DNA of 64,000 nucleotides from positions 50,294-114,293 of the forward strand of contig CACGGX010000001.1 of NCBI GenBank assembly GCA_902572735.1. Direction: 5' to 3'. A program made the translations under genes and the position numbers. The notes below the pieces were generated by a model that saw only the letters and a list, made by a program, of their open reading frames with translations, did not search any database and was not told the DNA's origin. Positions 22,602 through 29,680 of this stretch are shown one piece after another (the first letter of the stretch is position 1; every line of letters starts with the position of its first letter). Source of the DNA: an uncultured Alphaproteobacteria bacterium. Lineage in GTDB: Bacteria > Pseudomonadota > Alphaproteobacteria > HIMB59 > GCA-002718135.

Positions 22602-25154
22602 TTAAAGAAGTTTTTCTAAGACTGCAAACGGAGAATTAGGATCTCTTTTAGTTTCATTTATTTTAGTTTCTTTATTATTAATTTTTACTTTATTTTTTTT
22701 TGTAATTTTTTTAATTTCTTTTTTATTATTTTTTAAAAAATATAATTTTTTTTCATCATATGTAGTTAAATAATCGTAACCGCAAAAAACCATGATATCT
22801 TTAAGTTGATCACTATTACATCCAATTGGGTTCATCAAATCGGAAGACTCCAAAAAAGGACCTTTTTTTATTTTTTGCCTTGCTAAGAAAAAAATTTTTT
22901 CAAATACATCGATTCTAAAAACGAAATCTTTAATATTGATATAACCAATAGATTGCCAATAATTCTCTGGCATTTTAAACTCTGATTTAAAAGATACTCT
23001 TCCATTTTGTGGTAATGGTAAAAAATTATCTAATGCATTTTTGTAAAAAGTTTTCCATAAAATGGCACAAAACTCCAAAGGTTTTTTTTTCAATAAATTT
23101 GGTATAAAAAAATATTTTGCTCCAATCCTAATACCAAGTTTCGAAAGTTGAAGTTTACTCTCTTGTGAAATTGTTTTTAAGTTGTGTTTAAATGTTTCAA
23201 CTGGATAGTTTCCAAAATTCTCTAAACAATTAAAAACAATTGCTCTTATTTCTGAATTAATTTCTTCATCTAAGTTTTTTGTAAGAGGATGAATTGTATC
23301 ATTTATTTCATTTTCTAACCATTTTTGAAGTTTTGCAGATATCAATAATTTATTTTCTGAAGATAAATATTCAGAATTTAAGGCTTCGGCAATTGGTTTA
23401 TAAATTGATCTACCTTTTTTTATTTTTCCAATTGCTTCTTCTCCCCAACAAATTAAAGTTTCATTTTTAATTTTTGATTTACTAATATCCTCAAATCTAA
23501 TCGATTCTAATGGTGCATCCAAAAAATTATTTACTTTTTCATCAATCATTTTTCTTACAGATTTTTTTATATTACTAATCGAAAAAAGAGATTGTGAAAA
23601 TATTTTTTTATCCTCAATAAGATCAAAACCCACAATAATTCCATATTTTGTATTATCGAGATAAATTTTATTGTCATTTTTAATGAGAATATCTTCAGTA
23701 TCTTGAAAAATAGGTTTGCTAATGAAATATTTAGATGAGTAGTCTATAAATTTTTTTGTAAGACTTTCATGCAATTGGTCTGATAGTTTATTTTCTATTT
23801 GATGTGTTTTTTCTTTCCAAAAATATTTCTTTTTGAGCCAATTATGATTATTAGAAATATAAGTCCATGTTCTTATTTGTGAAATTTTTATTGATAACTC
23901 TGGTATACCTCCGCCAAAGTTATCAAGTCTACTTACTTTTTTATCTATCCATTCTTCAGGTAGTTTGTAATTATTTTCTATTAATGTAAGAAATATATCT
24001 TTTAACAATAATAAGTAATTATCATTAAATAATTTTTCAAAATCTGGTATTTGGCAAATATCCCAAAGTAATTTTAAATTTAATTTTGATTCTAAATTAT
24101 TTCTTATTTCTTTATCATCAATTAAATTACGAAAATTAATTTCATCCAAAGCATTTTTTTTATGAATAAAATGACTCTGTATTGGGTATTTTTTTAATGA
24201 TAATAATAATAAATCAATAGATTCAAAATTAAGATCGCTATTTCTCCAATAAATCTTTTGAATACTATCAAAGTTATGATTTTCTATTTGCTGTATTATC
24301 AATGGATCTAAATTACCTGCTTCTTTTGTGTAACTAAAAGTTCCATTTTTTTTATACCTACCTGCTCTACCTGCTATTTGACCAATTTCGTTAGGAGCAA
24401 GATTTCGATTATATCTGCCATCAAATTTTTCTAATGATGAAAAACTTACATGATTTATATTTAGATTCAAACCCATACCAATAGCATCCGTAGCTACCAA
24501 GTAATCAACATTATTATTTTCATATACCTCTACTTGAGCATTTCTGGTTCTTGGGCTAAGTGAGCCTAAAACAACTGCGGCTCCACCTTTGTGGGTTCTA
24601 ATATTTTCAGCAATTTCATAAACTTTGTTTATATTGAATGCAATTATTGCAGATCTAGGTTCAAGTTTAGAAAAATTTTGCTTCCTTAAAAATGTAAGTT
24701 GTGAAAATCTACTTTTTTTTTCAATAATAATATTAGGGTAGATTTTTTTTAATATATTTTCTATGTTTAAAGATCCTAAAAATATAGTTTGAAAATTACC
24801 TTTTTGATTTAAAATTCTATCTGTAAAAATATGCCCTCTTTCATAATCAGCTGCTAGCTGAACTTCATCAATTATTAAACAATCTACAGAAATATTGTCA
24901 GGCATTGACTCCACGGTGCAAAAAAAATATTTGGCTTCTTTAGGAATAATTTTCTCTTCTCCAGTTATTAATGCTACCTTGCTGATCCCAATTCTTTGTA
25001 CCGCTTTGTCATAATTTTCTCTAGCAAGTAATCTTAATGGAAAGCCAAAAACTCCTGAAGAATATGTGAACAGTTTTTCAAACGCTGTATAAGTTTTTCC
25101 AGTATTGGTAGGCCCAAGTATTGCTAATAAATTTTCGTCTGCATTAGACATCAA
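22602..25154 (-). CDS. SUV3-like SF2 RNA helicase (MgpS-type)
   Basis: GPTNTGKT, PLRLLARE, DEVQL, LVATDAIGMGLN, QIAGRAGR, C-terminal DPNSPFAVL. Confidence 0.9.
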   Translation of the reverse strand: MMSNADENLLAILGPTNTGKTYTAFEKLFTYSSGVFGFPLRLLARENYDKAVQRIGISKVALITGEEKIIPKEAKYFFCTVESMPDNISVDCLIIDEVQLAADYERGHIFTDRILNQKGNFQTIFLGSLNIENILKKIYPNIIIEKKSRFSQLTFLRKQNFSKLEPRSAIIAFNINKVYEIAENIRTHKGGAAVVLGSLSPRTRNAQVEVYENNNVDYLVATDAIGMGLNLNINHVSFSSLEKFDGRYNRNLAPNEIGQIAGRAGRYKKNGTFSYTKEAGNLDPLIIQQIENHNFDSIQKIYWRNSDLNFESIDLLLLSLKKYPIQSHFIHKKNALDEINFRNLIDDKEIRNNLESKLNLKLLWDICQIPDFEKLFNDNYLLLLKDIFLTLIENNYKLPEEWIDKKVSRLDNFGGGIPELSIKISQIRTWTYISNNHNWLKKKYFWKEKTHQIENKLSDQLHESLTKKFIDYSSKYFISKPIFQDTEDILIKNDNKIYLDNTKYGIIVGFDLIEDKKIFSQSLFSISNIKKSVRKMIDEKVNNFLDAPLESIRFEDISKSKIKNETLICWGEEAIGKIKKGRSIYKPIAEALNSEYLSSENKLLISAKLQKWLENEINDTIHPLTKNLDEEINSEIRAIVFNCLENFGNYPVETFKHNLKTISQESKLQLSKLGIRIGAKYFFIPNLLKKKPLEFCAILWKTFYKNALDNFLPLPQNGRVSFKSEFKMPENYWQSIGYINIKDFVFRIDVFEKIFFLARQKIKKGPFLESSDLMNPIGCNSDQLKDIMVFCGYDYLTTYDEKKLYFLKNNKKEIKKITKKNKVKINNKETKINETKRDPNSPFAVLEKLL

Positions 25155-25155
25155 A

Positions 25156-27798
25156 TTATGCAGCTTCTGATATTATTTCATTTAAAACGTAATTTAAAAT
25201 TCCTCCTGCTTTATAATATTCAAGTTCTTTATTAGTATCTATTCTACACTTTAAATGTATTTTTTTAGTCTCTTTAGAATAAATTTCACAATTAAGAATA
25301 GCTCCTGGTTTTATTTTAGACAAACCAAGAATAGAAATGATTTCGTCACCTAAAATATTAAGATTTTTTTTGTTTTCATTATTAATAAATTCAAGAGGTA
25401 AAACTCCCATTCCTATTAAATTTGATCTATGAATTCTCTCAAAACTTTCAGCAATTACTGCCTTAACACCTAAAAGTCTTGTTCCTTTAGCTGCCCAGTC
25501 CCTAGAAGAACCTGTGCCATATTCTTTACCTGCTACTATAACTGTATCAATATTATTCTTAATATATTCTTGAGCCGCATCATATATTGACATTTGTCTA
25601 TTTGAAACAAAGGATTTTGTGTAGCCTCCTTCCACATTATTTAGAATCTGGTTTTTAATTCTTATGTTCGCAAATGTACCACGCATCATAATTTCGTGAT
25701 TACCGCGTCTTGATCCATACGAATTAAAATTTCTAGAATTAATTTGTCTATCTGTTAAATAAAGACCAGCTGGACTATCTTCCTTAATATTTCCGGCAGG
25801 TGAAATATGGTCTGTTGTTACACTATCTCCTAGTAAAGCTAATATTCTCGCTTTTTTTATATCTTTTAACTCAAATTTATTTTGTGTGTCAAAAAAAGGA
25901 GGGTGTTTTATATAAGTACTAGTATCATTCCAATCATATGTAGTATCTTTGGAATTGTTAATTGATTTCCAATTATGATCACCTTTGTAAATTTCTTTAT
26001 ATCTTTCTTTAAACATTTCTGGTGTCAAACATAAACTTAGTGTTTGATTAATTTCTTTATTTGTTGGCCATAAGTCTTTTAAAAATATCTCTTTTCCAAA
26101 TTTAGATTTACCTAAAGAGTCAGTAGTAAGATTAATATTAATATTACCTGCAATTGCATAAGCAACGACAAGGGGTGGTGAAGCTAGAAAATTAGCTTTC
26201 ACTTCTTGGTGAACTCTTCCCTCAAAGTTTCTGTTTCCAGATAAAACGGAACAAACAGTCAAATTATTTTTTTTAATTTCATTAGATACCCATTCATCTA
26301 AAGGGCCAGAATTGCCAATACAAGTTGTACATCCGTAACCAACAGTATTGAAACCAAGCATATCTAAAAAAGTAGTTAAATCAGCTTTATCTAGATAATC
26401 ACTAACAACTTTACTACCTGGTGCTAAACTTGTTTTAACCCAAGGCTTAACTTCTAAGCCCAAATTAATCGCCTTTTTAGCAACCAAGCCAGCAGCAATC
26501 ATTACATTTGGATTTGAAGTATTTGTACAACTAGTAATTGCAGCTATTACAATATCACCTGTATTTAAATTATTTTTAGTTTTATTTGAGCTATTATCTA
26601 TCTTACTAAATTCAATCGGAACCTCTTTCAAAAGTATTTTATCTTGTGGCCTTTTTGGTCCAGCTAAACTTGGTTCAATTAAATTTAATTCTAATAATAT
26701 TTTATCTGAATATTCAGGCGCATAATTTGCATCTACCCATAGAGTTTGTTTTTTTGAATATTGTTCAACAATATTTAGATGATCATTATCTTTGCCAGTT
26801 AACTTAAGATAATCAATAGTTTCTTCATCAGTCGGGAAAAAACCACAAGTTGCCCCATACTCTGGAGCCATGTTTGAAATTGTAGCTCTGTCAGCTAATG
26901 ATAAACTTTTTAGACCTGTTCCATAAAATTCTACAAACTTTCCAACCACTCCTTTATCTCTAAGAATTTTAGTTATAGATAAAACTAGATCAGTTGCAGT
27001 AATTCCCTCATTCAATGACCCTTTTAATTCAAAACCAATAACGTCTGGAATATTCATAGAGATTGCTTGACCTAGCATTGCAGCCTCTGCCTCTATGCCT
27101 CCAACACCCCATCCTAAAACAGAGAGTGAATTAACCATAGTTGTGTGACTATCTGTTCCTACAACTGAATCTGGAAATAAATAATTTTGATTTTCAATTT
27201 GTTTAATCCATATTGTTTTAGCGATATTTTCTAGATTAACTTGATGACAAATTCCAGCTCCTGGAGGCACAAGATAGAAGTTATCAAAAGAACTTTGTCC
27301 CCATTTTAGAAATTCGTATCTTTCTTTATTTCTATCAAATTCTTTTTTTACATTTTCTTTTAAGGCATTTTTATCTTTATAATTATCAACCATAACTGAA
27401 TGGTCTATAACTAGGTCTACTCTAGAAAGTGGATTTATTTTTTTTGGATCAATTCCTTTTAATTTTAATGCATTTCGCATTGCTGCAAGATCAGCAACGG
27501 CTGGGACACCTGTAAAGTCCTGCATTAAAACTCGTGTTGGGAAAAAAGCTATTTCAATTTTTTCATCTTTTTTATTCTTTTCTTTTAAGTAAGAGATCAA
27601 ATTAGAAATCATCTCTTTACTAATGTTCTCTCCATCTTCATTCCTTAAAAGATTTTCAATTATTATTTTAATTGATATTGGAATTTTATTAAGATCTATA
27701 TCAAAGTATTCCGCTAATTTATTCAAATCAAAATATTTAAAAGTTTGATTATTTATCTCAATTATATTTTCAGAATTAAAAGAATTTATATTTTTCAT
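25156..27798 (-). CDS. acnA: aconitate hydratase A
   Basis: MQDFTGVPA, GTDSHT, AAITSCTNTSNP, GYGCTTCIGNSG, GSSRDWAAKG; likely ATG 27798. Confidence 0.97.
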   Translation of the reverse strand: MKNINSFNSENIIEINNQTFKYFDLNKLAEYFDIDLNKIPISIKIIIENLLRNEDGENISKEMISNLISYLKEKNKKDEKIEIAFFPTRVLMQDFTGVPAVADLAAMRNALKLKGIDPKKINPLSRVDLVIDHSVMVDNYKDKNALKENVKKEFDRNKERYEFLKWGQSSFDNFYLVPPGAGICHQVNLENIAKTIWIKQIENQNYLFPDSVVGTDSHTTMVNSLSVLGWGVGGIEAEAAMLGQAISMNIPDVIGFELKGSLNEGITATDLVLSITKILRDKGVVGKFVEFYGTGLKSLSLADRATISNMAPEYGATCGFFPTDEETIDYLKLTGKDNDHLNIVEQYSKKQTLWVDANYAPEYSDKILLELNLIEPSLAGPKRPQDKILLKEVPIEFSKIDNSSNKTKNNLNTGDIVIAAITSCTNTSNPNVMIAAGLVAKKAINLGLEVKPWVKTSLAPGSKVVSDYLDKADLTTFLDMLGFNTVGYGCTTCIGNSGPLDEWVSNEIKKNNLTVCSVLSGNRNFEGRVHQEVKANFLASPPLVVAYAIAGNININLTTDSLGKSKFGKEIFLKDLWPTNKEINQTLSLCLTPEMFKERYKEIYKGDHNWKSINNSKDTTYDWNDTSTYIKHPPFFDTQNKFELKDIKKARILALLGDSVTTDHISPAGNIKEDSPAGLYLTDRQINSRNFNSYGSRRGNHEIMMRGTFANIRIKNQILNNVEGGYTKSFVSNRQMSIYDAAQEYIKNNIDTVIVAGKEYGTGSSRDWAAKGTRLLGVKAVIAESFERIHRSNLIGMGVLPLEFINNENKKNLNILGDEIISILGLSKIKPGAILNCEIYSKETKKIHLKCRIDTNKELEYYKAGGILNYVLNEIISEAA

Positions 27799-28020
27799 GT
27801 TAAATTGATTAATAATTATAATATTTAAATAGTATGAAGATAAATTTTTGTATAGCAAAATGTTTATTTATTATTAGTTTTCTGCCAAAAATATAAAATT
27901 TAGTTCGTAATTTTTTTTCTTAATTTTTAAAAAGATGTTTTACCAAACTTAAATTAAATTAATTTTAAAATATTGGTATATTGTTGACTTTAACCGTAAG
28001 TTTTGGGAATAAATACACAG

Positions 28021-28086
28021 CCTTTTATAATTATCGCTTAGGCGATAATGGAGGGAGGTTCCTCCGGGGTAACAAAATACAAGGAG
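28021..28086 (+). promoter_or_regulatory. GC-rich structured 5' leader and RBS of the Lys-rich gene
   Basis: Hairpins ATTATCGC-ttag-GCGATAAT (28030-28049) and GGAGG-gaggtt-CCTCC (28050-28065); AAGGAG RBS 28081-28086; TTGACT -35-like element near 27984. Confidence 0.6.
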
Positions 28087-28092
28087 TATTTT

Positions 28093-28269
28093 ATGGCTAA
28101 GAAGAAAAAGAAAGCTGCTCCAAAGAAGAAGAAGAAAGCAGCTCCTAAGAAAAAGAAAAAAGCAGCTCCTAAAAAGAAAAAGAAAAAAGCTGCGCCTAAG
28201 AAAAAGAAAAAAGCAGCTCCTAAAAAGAAAAAGAAAAAAGCTGCTAAAAAGAAGAAAAAGAGAAGATAG
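28093..28269 (+). CDS. 58-aa Lys/Ala/Pro repeat, histone-H1-like basic protein
   Basis: MAK5(AAP-K5-6)x5-AA-K5-RR, 37 of 58 residues Lys; strong RBS, own terminator. Confidence 0.8.
   Translation: MAKKKKKAAPKKKKKAAPKKKKKAAPKKKKKKAAPKKKKKAAPKKKKKKAAKKKKKRR
28144..28244 (+). repeat. 51-bp-period tandem repeat inside the Lys-rich gene
   Basis: cctaagaaaaagaaaaaagcagctcctaaaaagaaaaagaaaaaagctgc at 28144-28193 and 28195-28244. Confidence 0.9.
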
Positions 28270-28336
28270 TAATATCTCAATTTTTCAAGAAAACTTTAAT
28301 TTAAAGTTTTCTTTTTCTTATCTTTTTCAAAAAGAT

Positions 28337-28362
28337 AAAACGGGGTTCTGCCCCGTTTTTTT
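28337..28362 (+). terminator. intrinsic terminator
   Basis: aaaaCGGGG-ttctg-CCCCG-T7, preceded by two AT-rich inverted repeats (28287-28313, 28318-28338). Confidence 0.85.
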
Positions 28363-28397
28363 ATTGTTTTAAATTAAAAAGTAATTAGATTTTAATA

Positions 28398-29003
28398 ATG
28401 ATAATTGTTAAGGATTTATCAGTGGAAAGATTAGATAAAAGAATATTTGAAAATATTAATTTATCTCTAGCATCTAGCGATATTACTATCTTAAAAGGCA
28501 ATAATGGTTCTGGCAAAACTACCTTACTAAAAACAATATTAAATATAATTGAACCATCTGTTGGGTCAATATATTGGAAAGGAAAATTATTAAAAAAAAA
28601 CTTATATGATTTCTATAGTAATGTTACATATATTGCTGATAGGACTTCAAGCTTAACTAGATTAACAGTCAAAGATAATATCAATATTTGGAAAAAAATA
28701 TTTCTATCAAATATTAATGATTCTCAAATTGAAACTGCATTAAAGACTCTAAGATTAGAAAACTATTTGAATCAAAAAGTTGGAAGATTATCTTTAGGAG
28801 AAACTAAAAAATTGGAATTATTAAGATTAATAATAGAAAATAAAAAATTATGGATTTTAGATGAGCCTCTTTCAAATTTAGATGAACATTCAATAGAGTT
28901 AATAAAACAAACTTTTGAAGATCATTGTTCGAAGGATGGGTCTATAATTTTTAGCTCACATCAAAATCCAGGAATTTATGTGACTGAAGAAATTAACTTA
29001 TAA
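28398..29003 (+). CDS. ccmA: heme ABC exporter ATPase CcmA
   Basis: GNNGSGKTT, WILDEP, SSHQ; first gene of the ccm cluster. Confidence 0.92.
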   Translation: MIIVKDLSVERLDKRIFENINLSLASSDITILKGNNGSGKTTLLKTILNIIEPSVGSIYWKGKLLKKNLYDFYSNVTYIADRTSSLTRLTVKDNINIWKKIFLSNINDSQIETALKTLRLENYLNQKVGRLSLGETKKLELLRLIIENKKLWILDEPLSNLDEHSIELIKQTFEDHCSKDGSIIFSSHQNPGIYVTEEINL

Positions 29004-29008
29004 AAATT

Positions 29009-29680
29009 ATGAAATTTTTAAATAAAATAATTTTCTTTTTTTACAGAGAGTACAAATTAAATCTAAGTGGCTTTCAAGATATTTTAACAAATATAATTTT
29101 CTTTTTCGTTTCAATATTAATATTCATATTCTCTATTGGACCAGATGAGGAGGTAATTTCTCTTATTGGAGTGGGTATAGTATGGGCATTATTATTACTA
29201 AGCTCCACATTGTCTTTAAAGAAATTTTATCAGGATGACTTTGAGAATGGTAATCTATTGATTATACATTTAAATGGGTTTAGTTTTGGATTTATTGCTA
29301 TTCTAAAAACTATTTCGCATTTTTTGTTTGTACAAATACCTTTTCTATTATCAATACCAATTGCTTGTATCATACTAAATATTTCTGATGATAAATTCTT
29401 CTACTTACTTACAAGTTTTAGCATGGGATCACTTACTCTATCTTGTTTAGGTTCAATTTCATCATCAATGAATCTAATGAATCATCGAAATTATTTACTG
29501 GGTAGCGTCATAGTTATGATATTTAGTGTTCCAATAATTATTTTTTCAATAGGTATAATTAATATAGAACAGAACTTTAATTCTCTTATAAATATATTAT
29601 TTGGAATACTATTAATTGTTTTTGCCATAAATCCCTGGGCAAGCGGATTGTGTCTTAAACTTTCATTAGAAAATAATTAA
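29009..29680 (+). CDS. ccmB: heme exporter permease CcmB
   Basis: Hydrophobic; FYQDDFENG, PIIIF; lies between ccmA and ccmC. Confidence 0.88.
   Translation: MKFLNKIIFFFYREYKLNLSGFQDILTNIIFFFVSILIFIFSIGPDEEVISLIGVGIVWALLLLSSTLSLKKFYQDDFENGNLLIIHLNGFSFGFIAILKTISHFLFVQIPFLLSIPIACIILNISDDKFFYLLTSFSMGSLTLSCLGSISSSMNLMNHRNYLLGSVIVMIFSVPIIIFSIGIINIEQNFNSLINILFGILLIVFAINPWASGLCLKLSLENN

What the first reader, a model, noticed from the sequence alone, without database searches (positions are those of the whole stretch)
27984..28362. Self-contained K5-6AAP polylysine (histone-H1-like) gene with structured RNA on both sides
Seen: a 58-aa protein (37 Lys, no acidic or aromatic residues) made of AAP-K5/6 units, with its own -35-like element, strong AAGGAG RBS and terminator, inserted in the acnA/ccmA divergent gap. 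Known: Lys/Ala/Pro repeat proteins (Chlamydia Hc2, Pseudomonas AlgP, Bordetella BpH1, histone H1 tails) bind and condense DNA. Inference: a minimal protamine-like nucleoid-condensing or polyanion-binding peptide in a tiny-celled oligotroph, expressed as a dedicated, highly structured mRNA. Trypsin proteomics and low-complexity filters would tend to miss it. This is the best candidate for an undescribed system in the window.
Basis: partly seen in the sequence, partly recalled or inferred. Interest (0 to 1): 0.8.

Follow-up and report, generated by a model that had tools for sequence, protein, structure and literature searches.

The report
Tiny polylysine protein gene, marine bacteria
A real gene for a 58-residue protein that is two-thirds lysine sits before the cytochrome c maturation genes in a whole order of small marine bacteria; it most likely makes a histone-tail-like polycation that coats DNA or RNA, and protein catalogues largely lack it.

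Summary
Window 28093-28269 (+) encodes a 58-aa protein (37 K, 13 A, 5 P, 2 R, 1 M) with an AAGGAG ribosome-binding site, a TTGACT -35 box, two 5' hairpins, three 3' hairpins and an intrinsic terminator.

It is a selected coding gene:
- 12 of 13 variable sites among 10 equal-length copies fall at codon position 3.
- 99 of 99 complete genome copies and 47 of 47 complete metagenome copies keep the frame, while repeat number varies (35-92 aa).
- K/R swaps are common.
- Lys codons are arranged so that no A-run exceeds 6, against a simulated mean of 17.9.

The gene was not "inserted". It is ancestral to the whole order, probably HIMB59/AEGEAN-169 (my inference). A longer form (55-144 aa) occurs in the sister family, which my profile search missed. 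It always lies directly upstream of ccmA (149 of 149 loci).

Contigs from marine RNA libraries of four studies cover its unique UTRs. No Pfam, NCBIfam, Rfam or PDB family matches, and five exact variants are absent from a 15-billion-protein collection.

Function is inferred from composition only: a disordered polycation like the histone H1 tail or a protamine, binding DNA or RNA. Polyphosphate partnership and a leader-peptide role are less likely. I file it as a new variant of a known kind.

The parts
27984..27989 (+). -35-like hexamer TTGACT
   Evidence: Read. Conserved in all 17 protein-selected loci and in other genera as TTGAC[AT].
27990..28018 (+). Conserved spacer CGTAAGTTTTGGGAA, an A-rich -10-like stretch (G)AATAA(A), and a variable discriminator
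   Evidence: The spacer is far more conserved than a normal promoter spacer, and this is unexplained. The block is single copy in the genome.
28019..28092 (+). Inferred 5' UTR starting with the conserved AGCCTTTTAT
   Evidence: Alignment A2 of 29 leaders from 8 genera. The start point is inferred and was not mapped.
28031..28048 (+). 5' hairpin 1 (TTATCGC / GCGATAA, loop 3-9 nt in relatives)
   Evidence: 88% of cells paired, 4 of 7 pairs change on both sides. U-G wobbles (GTGGTA variants) fit RNA on the + strand.
28050..28065 (+). 5' hairpin 2 (GGAGG / CCTCC)
   Evidence: 95% paired and nearly invariant. One genus has a different palindrome in its place (L127) and one genus lacks it (L130).
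28081..28086 (+). Shine-Dalgarno AAGGAG, 6 nt before the ATG
   Evidence: Invariant columns in A2.
28093..28269 (+). CDS, 58 aa Lys/Ala/Pro repeat protein (stop included)
28287..28313 (+). 3' UTR hairpin A
   Evidence: Kept in relatives with changes in the 5' arm.
28306..28327 (+). Conserved pyrimidine tract GTTTTCTTTTTCTTATCTTTTT, complementary to the Lys-codon runs
   Evidence: Conserved across genera of the family. It pairs with the CDS in the whole-mRNA fold. Single copy.
28318..28338 (+). 3' UTR hairpin B
28337..28366 (+). Intrinsic terminator (CGGGG..CCCCG stem, T-run)
   Evidence: Conserved in all loci read.
28398..29003 (+). ccmA, the invariant downstream neighbour, probably reached by read-through
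   Evidence: TIGR01189, 146.8 bits, cut-off 131.6; 149 of 149 loci; contig X1 record 3 spans 28225-28475.
25156..27798 (-). acnA, the divergent upstream neighbour in this family
   Evidence: 110 of 140 loci.

Best explanation
The gene is translated into an abundant, intrinsically disordered polycation: net charge about +39 in 58 residues, and 35-144 residues in relatives. The protein has no folded domain and resembles the C-terminal tail of linker histone H1 or a lysine-type protamine. It most likely works by non-specific electrostatic binding to nucleic acid. DNA is the first candidate (charge neutralisation and compaction of the nucleoid in a very small cell). RNA and ribosomes are the second. 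What selection keeps is charge and length, not a precise sequence. The mRNA is a dedicated unit: a promoter, a 5' UTR of about 74 nt with two hairpins, a strong SD, and a 3' UTR with two hairpins plus a terminator. Leakage through that terminator probably supplies the transcript for ccmABC.

Shown here: the coding status, the conservation, the architecture, and the presence of the gene in RNA libraries.

Inferred: the protein's abundance, what it binds, the transcription start, and read-through into ccm.
For: Coding status:
- Among 10 equal-length copies, 12 of 13 variable sites are at codon position 3, and 11 of 12 variable codons are synonymous. The two other sense frames give 1 synonymous against 12 non-synonymous and 0 against 13.
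- 99 of 102 genome loci carrying the leader have a complete ORF, and the other 3 are cut by contig or locus ends. There are 32 distinct peptides of 40-82 aa. All begin MAKK and end in a K/R run.
- 47 of 47 complete copies on metagenome contigs are intact, 35-92 aa, and 45 distinct peptides occur among the 46 typical ones.
- The sister family has 27 complete ORFs among 30 loci. 25 are typical, 1 looks frameshifted and 1 carries an N-run.
- K to R swaps are frequent. The composition over 98 unique CDS is K 54.6%, A 26.4%, P 8.0%, R 7.5%.

Codon arrangement:
- The genome uses AAA for 87% of Lys codons. This gene uses AAG for 18 of 37.
- Its longest A-run is 6. Simulations reached 6 or less in 0 of 10,000 draws with genome codon usage (mean 17.9, minimum 11) and in 0 of 10,000 shuffles of its own Lys codons (mean 12.6).
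- Across 98 CDS the longest A-run is 5-9.

Expression signals:
- The SD and ATG are invariant in 29 leaders.
- Hairpin 1 is supported by double changes and U-G wobbles.
- The terminator is present in every locus read.

RNA: 14 RNA-library runs from 10 coded studies hold 0.40-0.45 of the sampled words. Contigs from 4 studies cover the non-repetitive 5' UTR (X1, 28053-28124, 0 mismatches) and 3' UTR (X2, 28256-28332; X8, 28249-28345).

Analogy, from abstracts seen: lysine-rich low-complexity repeats or tails bind or compact DNA in M. smegmatis Ku (PMC3553676), in MDP1 (PMC5974015, PMC10810275) and in Hc2 (PMC2848022).
Against: No binding or localisation data exist, and function rests on composition. 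No sequence family matches: Pfam and NCBIfam gave 0 families for the 58-aa protein. The best match for the 144-aa form is NF038053 at 11.2 bits against a cut-off of 80. HU/IHF are present in 181 of 187 genomes of the order, so no gap in nucleoid proteins needs filling. Translation itself was not observed. The RNA evidence comes from contigs only, which cannot show strand, ends or level, and RNA libraries can hold DNA. The invariant link to ccmA has no explanation under a pure nucleoid-protein reading except a shared promoter.
Confidence: 0.6

Rival explanations
1. The polycation acts mainly on RNA or ribosomes, as an RNA chaperone, translation activator or ribosome-associated counter-ion, rather than on the chromosome.
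For: The histone H1-like disordered region of PhaF is reported to be an RNA-binding translation activator (PMC12818456, abstract seen). The conserved structured leader resembles the autoregulated leaders of ribosomal and RNA-binding proteins (established knowledge). The conserved 3' UTR pyrimidine tract complementary to the CDS suggests RNA-level feedback.
Against: No ribosomal-protein or RNA-binding family matches, and no Rfam leader family matches. Repeat number varies from 35 to 144 aa, which fits a non-specific coat better than a fixed ribosomal site.
Confidence: 0.2
2. It is a polyphosphate-granule protein of the AlgP type, binding polyP rather than nucleic acid.
For: AlgP, a histone H1-like protein, spaces polyP granules (PMC9239181, abstract seen). 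The window's own genome has PPK1.
Against: PPK1 was found in only 2 of 5 genomes that carry the gene. It was not found in the complete 99% genome G025, nor in G071 (92% complete) or G128 (90%). PPK2 was found in 0 of 5. So the gene is core while polyP synthesis is not.
Confidence: 0.06
3. The ORF is chiefly a cis-acting leader of the ccm operon. Its translation tunes read-through of the terminator, and the peptide itself is unimportant.
For: ccmA follows on the same strand in 149 of 149 loci. In the sister family the ccmA ATG directly follows the terminator T-run, leaving no room for a promoter. One RNA-library contig spans the terminator into ccmA (X1 record 3).
Against: No terminator/antiterminator alternative is visible in the folds. 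The codon arrangement avoids the A-runs that stall ribosomes, the opposite of what a stalling sensor would need. K to R swaps and a four-fold length range preserve charge, not a Lys-codon count. The SD is strong and the unit has its own terminator.
Confidence: 0.08
4. It is not a protein gene at all: a purine-rich non-coding RNA, or the antisense poly-Phe ORF (28038-28280, minus strand), is the real product.
For: The antisense frame is open (80 aa) and shows 9 synonymous against 4 non-synonymous variable codons. The +1 sense frame is also open.
Against: The sense frame scores 11 synonymous against 1 non-synonymous. The K to R changes in divergent copies would be radical changes in the antisense frame (my reading of the CDS). 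The SD and ATG are invariant on the + strand. U-G wobbles in hairpin 1 fit the + strand only. All indels are multiples of 3.
Confidence: 0.03

Closest known systems
Chlamydial histone-like protein Hc2 (HctB; Pfam PF07382)
   Same: A stand-alone protein made almost entirely of lysine/alanine-rich short repeats, with natural variation in repeat number (PMC2848022, abstract seen). The nearest ESM-Atlas feature clusters include one in which 15% of members carry PF07382.
   Different: No PF07382 match at E up to 10. It is 35-144 aa against 165-237 aa. The host is a free-living marine oligotroph, not an intracellular pathogen with a developmental cycle. DNA binding is untested here.
C-terminal domain of eukaryotic linker histone H1, and protamines
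   Same: Lys/Ala/Pro low-complexity composition, extreme positive charge, presumably disordered.
   Different: No globular winged-helix domain (no Pfam hit, and the protein is too short). It is lysine-based rather than arginine-based, unlike protamines. This is similarity of composition and shows no homology.
AlgP and PhaF of Pseudomonas (histone H1-like tails)
   Same: Lys/Ala/Pro repeat region that binds polyanions: polyP granule spacing for AlgP (PMC9239181) and RNA binding for PhaF (PMC12818456).
   Different: Both carry an additional non-repeat domain (recalled, not checked here). This protein is repeats only. PPK1 was found in only 2 of 5 carrier genomes.
Lysine-rich tails of actinobacterial DNA-binding proteins (MDP1/HupB, HupS, Ku)
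   Same: Lys/Ala/Pro repeats that raise DNA affinity and compact DNA (PMC5974015, PMC10810275, PMC11229371, PMC3553676; abstracts seen).
   Different: Those are tails on folded HU or Ku domains. Here HU/IHF genes are separate and ordinary, and the repeat protein stands alone.
NCBIfam NF038053, histone H1-like DNA-binding protein (Burkholderia type)
   Same: The only curated family that registers at all, and only for the 144-aa form.
   Different: 11.2 bits against a cut-off of 80, E 0.34. Not a member.

Membership tests
Hc2 / PF07382 | Match to the Pfam HC2 profile | tested here: not met
   0 Pfam families at E up to 10 for the 58-, 81- and 144-aa forms. HMMER bias filters may suppress low-complexity matches.
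Hc2 / PF07382 | Protein built of short Lys/Ala-rich repeats with natural repeat-number variation | tested here: met
   32 distinct peptides of 40-82 aa, 55-144 aa in the sister family, 35-92 aa in metagenomes.
Hc2 / PF07382 | Binds and condenses DNA or RNA | not testable with these tools
   Needs EMSA, condensation assays or in vivo expression.
NF038053 histone H1-like DNA-binding protein | Score over the curated cut-off (80 bits) | tested here: not met
   11.2 bits, E 0.34 for the 144-aa form. No hit for the 58- and 81-aa forms.
Linker histone H1 | Globular winged-helix domain | tested here: not met
   No Pfam hit. The whole protein is repeats.
Linker histone H1 | Lys/Ala/Pro-rich basic tail | tested here: met
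   K 64%, A 22%, P 9% in the window protein. K 54.6%, A 26.4%, P 8.0%, R 7.5% over 98 CDS.
AlgP-type polyP granule protein | Co-occurrence with polyphosphate synthesis | tested here: not met
   PPK1 in 2 of 5 carrier genomes, PPK2 in 0 of 5.
Attenuator leader peptide | Mutually exclusive terminator and antiterminator hairpins overlapping the end of the ORF | tested here: inconclusive
   The folds show three independent hairpins and no alternative pairing. Only MFE and centroid structures were examined.
Ribosomal protein | Match to a curated ribosomal protein family | tested here: not met
   0 NCBIfam and 0 Pfam families. No PDB sequence match for the 144-aa form.
Known cis-regulatory RNA (Rfam) | Score at or above the gathering threshold | tested here: not met
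   The best of 11 weak matches is 25.1 bits against a gathering score of 79. All lie on the terminator region.

The most novel reading that the evidence does not exclude
Stand-alone polylysine mini-proteins may form a convergent, largely unannotated class of 'bacterial protamines' in ultra-small, streamlined cells. They occur here in an abundant marine alphaproteobacterial order, and other windows of this scan noted them in CPR/Patescibacteria. In this reading they are among the most highly expressed genes and serve as the main macromolecular counter-ion for DNA and RNA. Their charge would be tuned by the small SET-domain lysine methyltransferase that is core to this order (5 of 5 genomes), in parallel with the chlamydial SET enzyme and Hc1/Hc2.
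Probability: 0.2. Interest if true: 0.8.

Novelty: new variant of a known kind. Interest (0 to 1): 0.55.

Why it matters
The carriers are abundant ocean bacterioplankton. A core gene present in RNA libraries of many studies is missing from most protein catalogues, because it is short and low-complexity and breaks assemblies: 32 of 80 metagenome contigs end inside it. Tryptic proteomics would cut the product to pieces.

If the product is a major nucleic-acid counter-ion, models of nucleoid organisation, nitrogen budgets and gene regulation in streamlined cells lack a component.

The gene is also a clean natural example of codon choice that breaks up poly(A) runs in a polylysine ORF.

Tried and rejected
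- **Rfam** on 27000-29500 found nothing near a gathering score.
- **Pfam, NCBIfam, PDB sequences and phage tblastn** gave no usable match.
- **The search for homologous proteins** was swamped by 8000 low-complexity candidates. Its one hit, P0003, is a frameshift fusion of this gene.
- **The representatives search with profile A1** gave 4 hits. Two are fusions of this gene to unrelated sequence (P0004, P0007) and two are unrelated repeat proteins.
- **Profile and single-protein searches** gave 0/16 and 0/71 for the sister family, and 0 for genera g4 and g9. This was a false negative. Synteny found the gene in 5 of 5 of those genomes examined, and a start-region pattern found it in 46 of 71.
- **Replacement of HU/IHF** is rejected.
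- **PolyP partnership** is weakened.
- **The in-frame upstream ATG at 28048** (73-aa form) is not conserved as a start (ATG, GTG, TTG, ACG or shifted) and has no SD. Rejected.
- **The SD-sequestering hairpin 3** is only 76% paired and is lost in divergent copies.
- **The alternative promoter TTGGGA-N17-TATAAT** would start inside hairpin 1, whose U-G wobbles argue that it is RNA. I consider it less likely, but the start is unmapped.
- **A hairpin in the TTGACTTT..AAGTT block**, proposed by RNAalifold, is broken in other genera.
- **RNA contigs**. There was no cover on acnA, ccmA or 27970-28016 in X2, X3 and X8. Summed word depths over the repeats were very large, and the repeats also match other organisms. 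A loose end at 28021 in X3 reads as the reverse complement of the CDS start. None of these is usable as evidence for level or ends.
- **The search of earlier findings** by place and by sequence returned nothing.
- **Structure prediction and complex prediction** were not run, because a repeat polycation would give no informative model.
- **One look-up entry** had wrong coordinates and is disregarded.

Full report
**What is there**

Window 28093-28269 (+) translates to a 58-residue protein: 37 Lys, 13 Ala, 5 Pro, 2 Arg and the initiator Met. It consists of five AAP-K5/6 units and a final AA-K5-RR.

- AAGGAG sits at 28081-28086, 6 nt before the ATG, and TTGACT at 27984-27989.
- A terminator stem-loop at 28337-28359 is followed by a T-run.
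- The 5' stretch folds into hairpins at 28031-28048 and 28050-28065 (z -3.7).
- The 3' stretch folds into three hairpins (z -6.4).
- The neighbours are AcnA on the minus strand and CcmA, CcmB and CcmC on the plus strand.

**Is it a gene?**

The sequence is purine-rich, so two other frames are also open: the +1 sense frame and an antisense poly-Phe frame. Openness alone therefore proves nothing. Substitution pattern and frame conservation decide the matter.

- *Substitution pattern.* Among 10 copies of identical length there are 13 variable sites. 12 are at codon position 3, and 11 of 12 variable codons are synonymous in the annotated frame. The other frames give 1 synonymous to 12 non-synonymous, 0 to 13, 0 to 12, 9 to 4 and 0 to 13.
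- *Genome loci.* Of 102 loci holding the leader, 99 carry a complete ORF and 3 are cut by contig or locus ends. There are 32 distinct peptides of 40-82 aa. All begin MAKK and end in a Lys/Arg run, and every length difference is a multiple of three. These loci come from two overlapping fetches, so they are not all independent.
- *Metagenome contigs.* Of 80 contigs fetched (at least 114 matched), 47 hold a complete ORF and all 47 are intact. They are 35-92 aa, with 45 distinct peptides among the 46 typical ones. One further copy has a single Gln.
- *Conservative change.* Lys to Arg replacement is common in divergent copies.

**Codon arrangement**

The genome uses AAA for 87% of Lys codons (673 long ORFs). 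This gene uses AAG for 18 of 37, placed so that the longest A-run is 6. With genome codon usage the simulated longest run averages 17.9 and is never below 11. Shuffling the gene's own Lys codons gives a mean of 12.6. In both tests 0 of 10,000 trials reached 6 or less. Over 98 unique CDS of the order the longest run is 5-9. Long A-runs are known to cause ribosome sliding and polymerase slippage (established knowledge, recalled), so this pattern is what selection on faithful expression of a polylysine ORF would produce.

**Distribution**

- A single-protein search found the gene in 73 of 116 genomes of the family, counting the window's own genome (7 of 11 high-quality genomes).
- A 16-sequence profile (A1) raised this to 79 of 115 in the family and found 0 of 71 in the sister family.
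- That zero was a method failure. Searching for CcmA and reading upstream showed the gene in all 5 previously negative genomes examined: two further genera of the family and three of the sister family.
- The sister-family form is longer (55-144 aa, starting MAVKKKK or MAKKRK). A pattern from its start region is present in 46 of 71 genomes (9 of 11 high-quality), and the reversed-pattern control gave 0.
- Many misses are explained by assembly. 32 of 80 metagenome contigs end within 256 nt of the promoter, inside the gene, and several genome hits sit at contig ends.
- Outside the order, a codon pattern for KKAAPKK[K/R]K hit 1 of 397 sampled alphaproteobacterial genomes, against 4 of 4 in the order.
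- Record titles name marine Alphaproteobacteria or Pelagibacterales single-cell and metagenome genomes. That the order is HIMB59/AEGEAN-169 is my inference.

**Context**

ccmA follows on the same strand in 149 of 149 loci with enough downstream sequence. The divergent upstream gene is acnA in 110 of 140 and a helicase-like gene in 28 of 140; the other 2 loci, with identical helicase-like hits (probably one genome), have it in the other orientation. In the sister family the ccmA ATG directly follows the terminator T-run. One RNA-library contig spans 28225-28475. I therefore infer that ccmABC is transcribed by leakage through this gene's terminator, which would also explain the fixed linkage. 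The gene is thus not an insertion and not entirely self-contained.

**The mRNA**

In 29 leaders from 8 genera (A2) the invariant or nearly invariant parts are AGCCTTT at the inferred 5' end, the SD and the start codon.

- *Hairpin 1* is 88% paired, with changes on both sides in 4 of 7 pairs. Its loops vary from 3 to 9 nt. It shows U-G wobbles that fit only the + strand RNA.
- *Hairpin 2* (GGAGG/CCTCC) is 95% paired but almost invariant. One genus has a different palindrome in its place and one lacks it.
- *Overall pairing* is 85.6%, against 34-62% for slid controls, and 0 of 500 shuffles reach that value.
- *The sister family* has its own hairpin before the SD, with compensatory variants.
- *The 3' UTR* keeps a pyrimidine tract (28306-28327) complementary to the Lys-codon runs. 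This tract pairs with the CDS in the whole-mRNA fold (z -4.9). Whether that pairing matters is open.
- *No Rfam family* fits.
- *The promoter spacer* CGTAAGTTTTGGGAA is unusually conserved, and I cannot explain it.

**Expression**

14 RNA-library runs from 10 coded studies hold 0.40-0.45 of the sampled words. In four studies, contigs cover the non-repetitive 5' UTR and 3' UTR with few or no mismatches. Contigs cannot give strand, ends or level, and depths over the repeats are inflated by other organisms. I claim only that the unit occurs in marine RNA libraries.

**Databases**

- Pfam and NCBIfam give nothing for the 58-aa protein.
- The 144-aa form scores 11.2 bits against NF038053 (cut-off 80).
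- Five correctly specified variants are absent from the 15-billion-protein collection.
- The only relatives among 1.84 billion representatives, and the only hit of the word-indexed search, are three fusions of the gene to unrelated sequence by frameshift or read-through.
- The ESM Atlas does hold the 144-aa form. Its feature neighbours are 'hypothetical', and one cluster carries PF07382 in 15% of members.
- Searches for Pelagibacter with lysine-rich, for SAR11 with histone H1, and for HIMB59 or AEGEAN-169 with histone found no paper describing it. Supplements could not be seen.

**Function**

Nothing here tests binding. By composition the protein is a disordered polycation like the H1 tail, Hc2, or the Lys/Ala/Pro tails of MDP1, HupS and Ku. 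For those, DNA binding or compaction is reported (abstracts seen). PhaF shows that such a region can instead bind RNA and activate translation.

- I put nucleic-acid binding at 0.6, with DNA the first candidate.
- PolyP partnership is weakened by PPK1 in only 2 of 5 carriers and PPK2 in 0 of 5.
- Replacement of HU/IHF is excluded.
- A pure leader-peptide role is unlikely, given codon choice that avoids stalling, K/R swaps and the four-fold length range.

**A lead**

Earlier unchecked notes of this scan describe similar mini-genes in CPR bacteria, three of them next to SET methyltransferases. A SET-domain gene is present over cut-off in 5 of 5 genomes of this order, against 29 of 149 other sampled alphaproteobacterial genomes and 1 of 14 control genomes. 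It is not adjacent to the polylysine gene. Its translation shows NHSCNPN and a Cys-rich end; that these are SET signatures is recalled. This is suggestive only.

**Verdict**

This is a real, order-wide, largely uncatalogued gene. It is a new variant of the bacterial H1-like polycation kind, and its function remains to be shown.

Noticed in passing
Own genome contig C11, locus L299 1118-1888 (minus strand); not in the window: A small SET-domain protein gene (PF00856, 82.6 bits) is present in 5 of 5 genomes of the order examined, against 29 of 149 other sampled alphaproteobacterial genomes. It is a candidate lysine methyltransferase for the polylysine protein. In two genomes it lies about 4.5 kb from PPK1.
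   Followed up: partly
window 27990-28013: The promoter spacer CGTAAGTTTTGGGAA is nearly invariant across genera, far more than a sigma-70 spacer should be. It could be a regulator site or an unusual promoter type.
   Followed up: partly
window 28306-28327: The conserved 3' UTR pyrimidine tract is the complement of the Lys-codon runs and pairs with the CDS in the whole-mRNA fold.
   Followed up: partly
L132-L134 and L135-L164 (sister family): The ccmA start codon directly follows the terminator T-run of the polylysine gene, with no visible SD or promoter. This implies read-through transcription of ccmABC.
   Followed up: partly
window 22602-25154 (minus strand): An 850-aa helicase-like ORF (GPTNTGKT motif) has no NCBIfam family at E up to 1e-10. 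It is the divergent neighbour of the polylysine gene in the sister family.
   Followed up: no
L140 (G136) and P0003, P0004, P0007: Occasional frameshifted or read-through versions of the gene occur in assemblies. They are probably errors at A-runs, and they are the only forms that reached the protein libraries searched.
   Followed up: partly
window 28093-28269: Alternating GCA-GCT and GCT-GCT alanine codon pairs make neighbouring AAP units complementary, giving small hairpins around each Lys run in the fold. I did not test this against chance.
   Followed up: no
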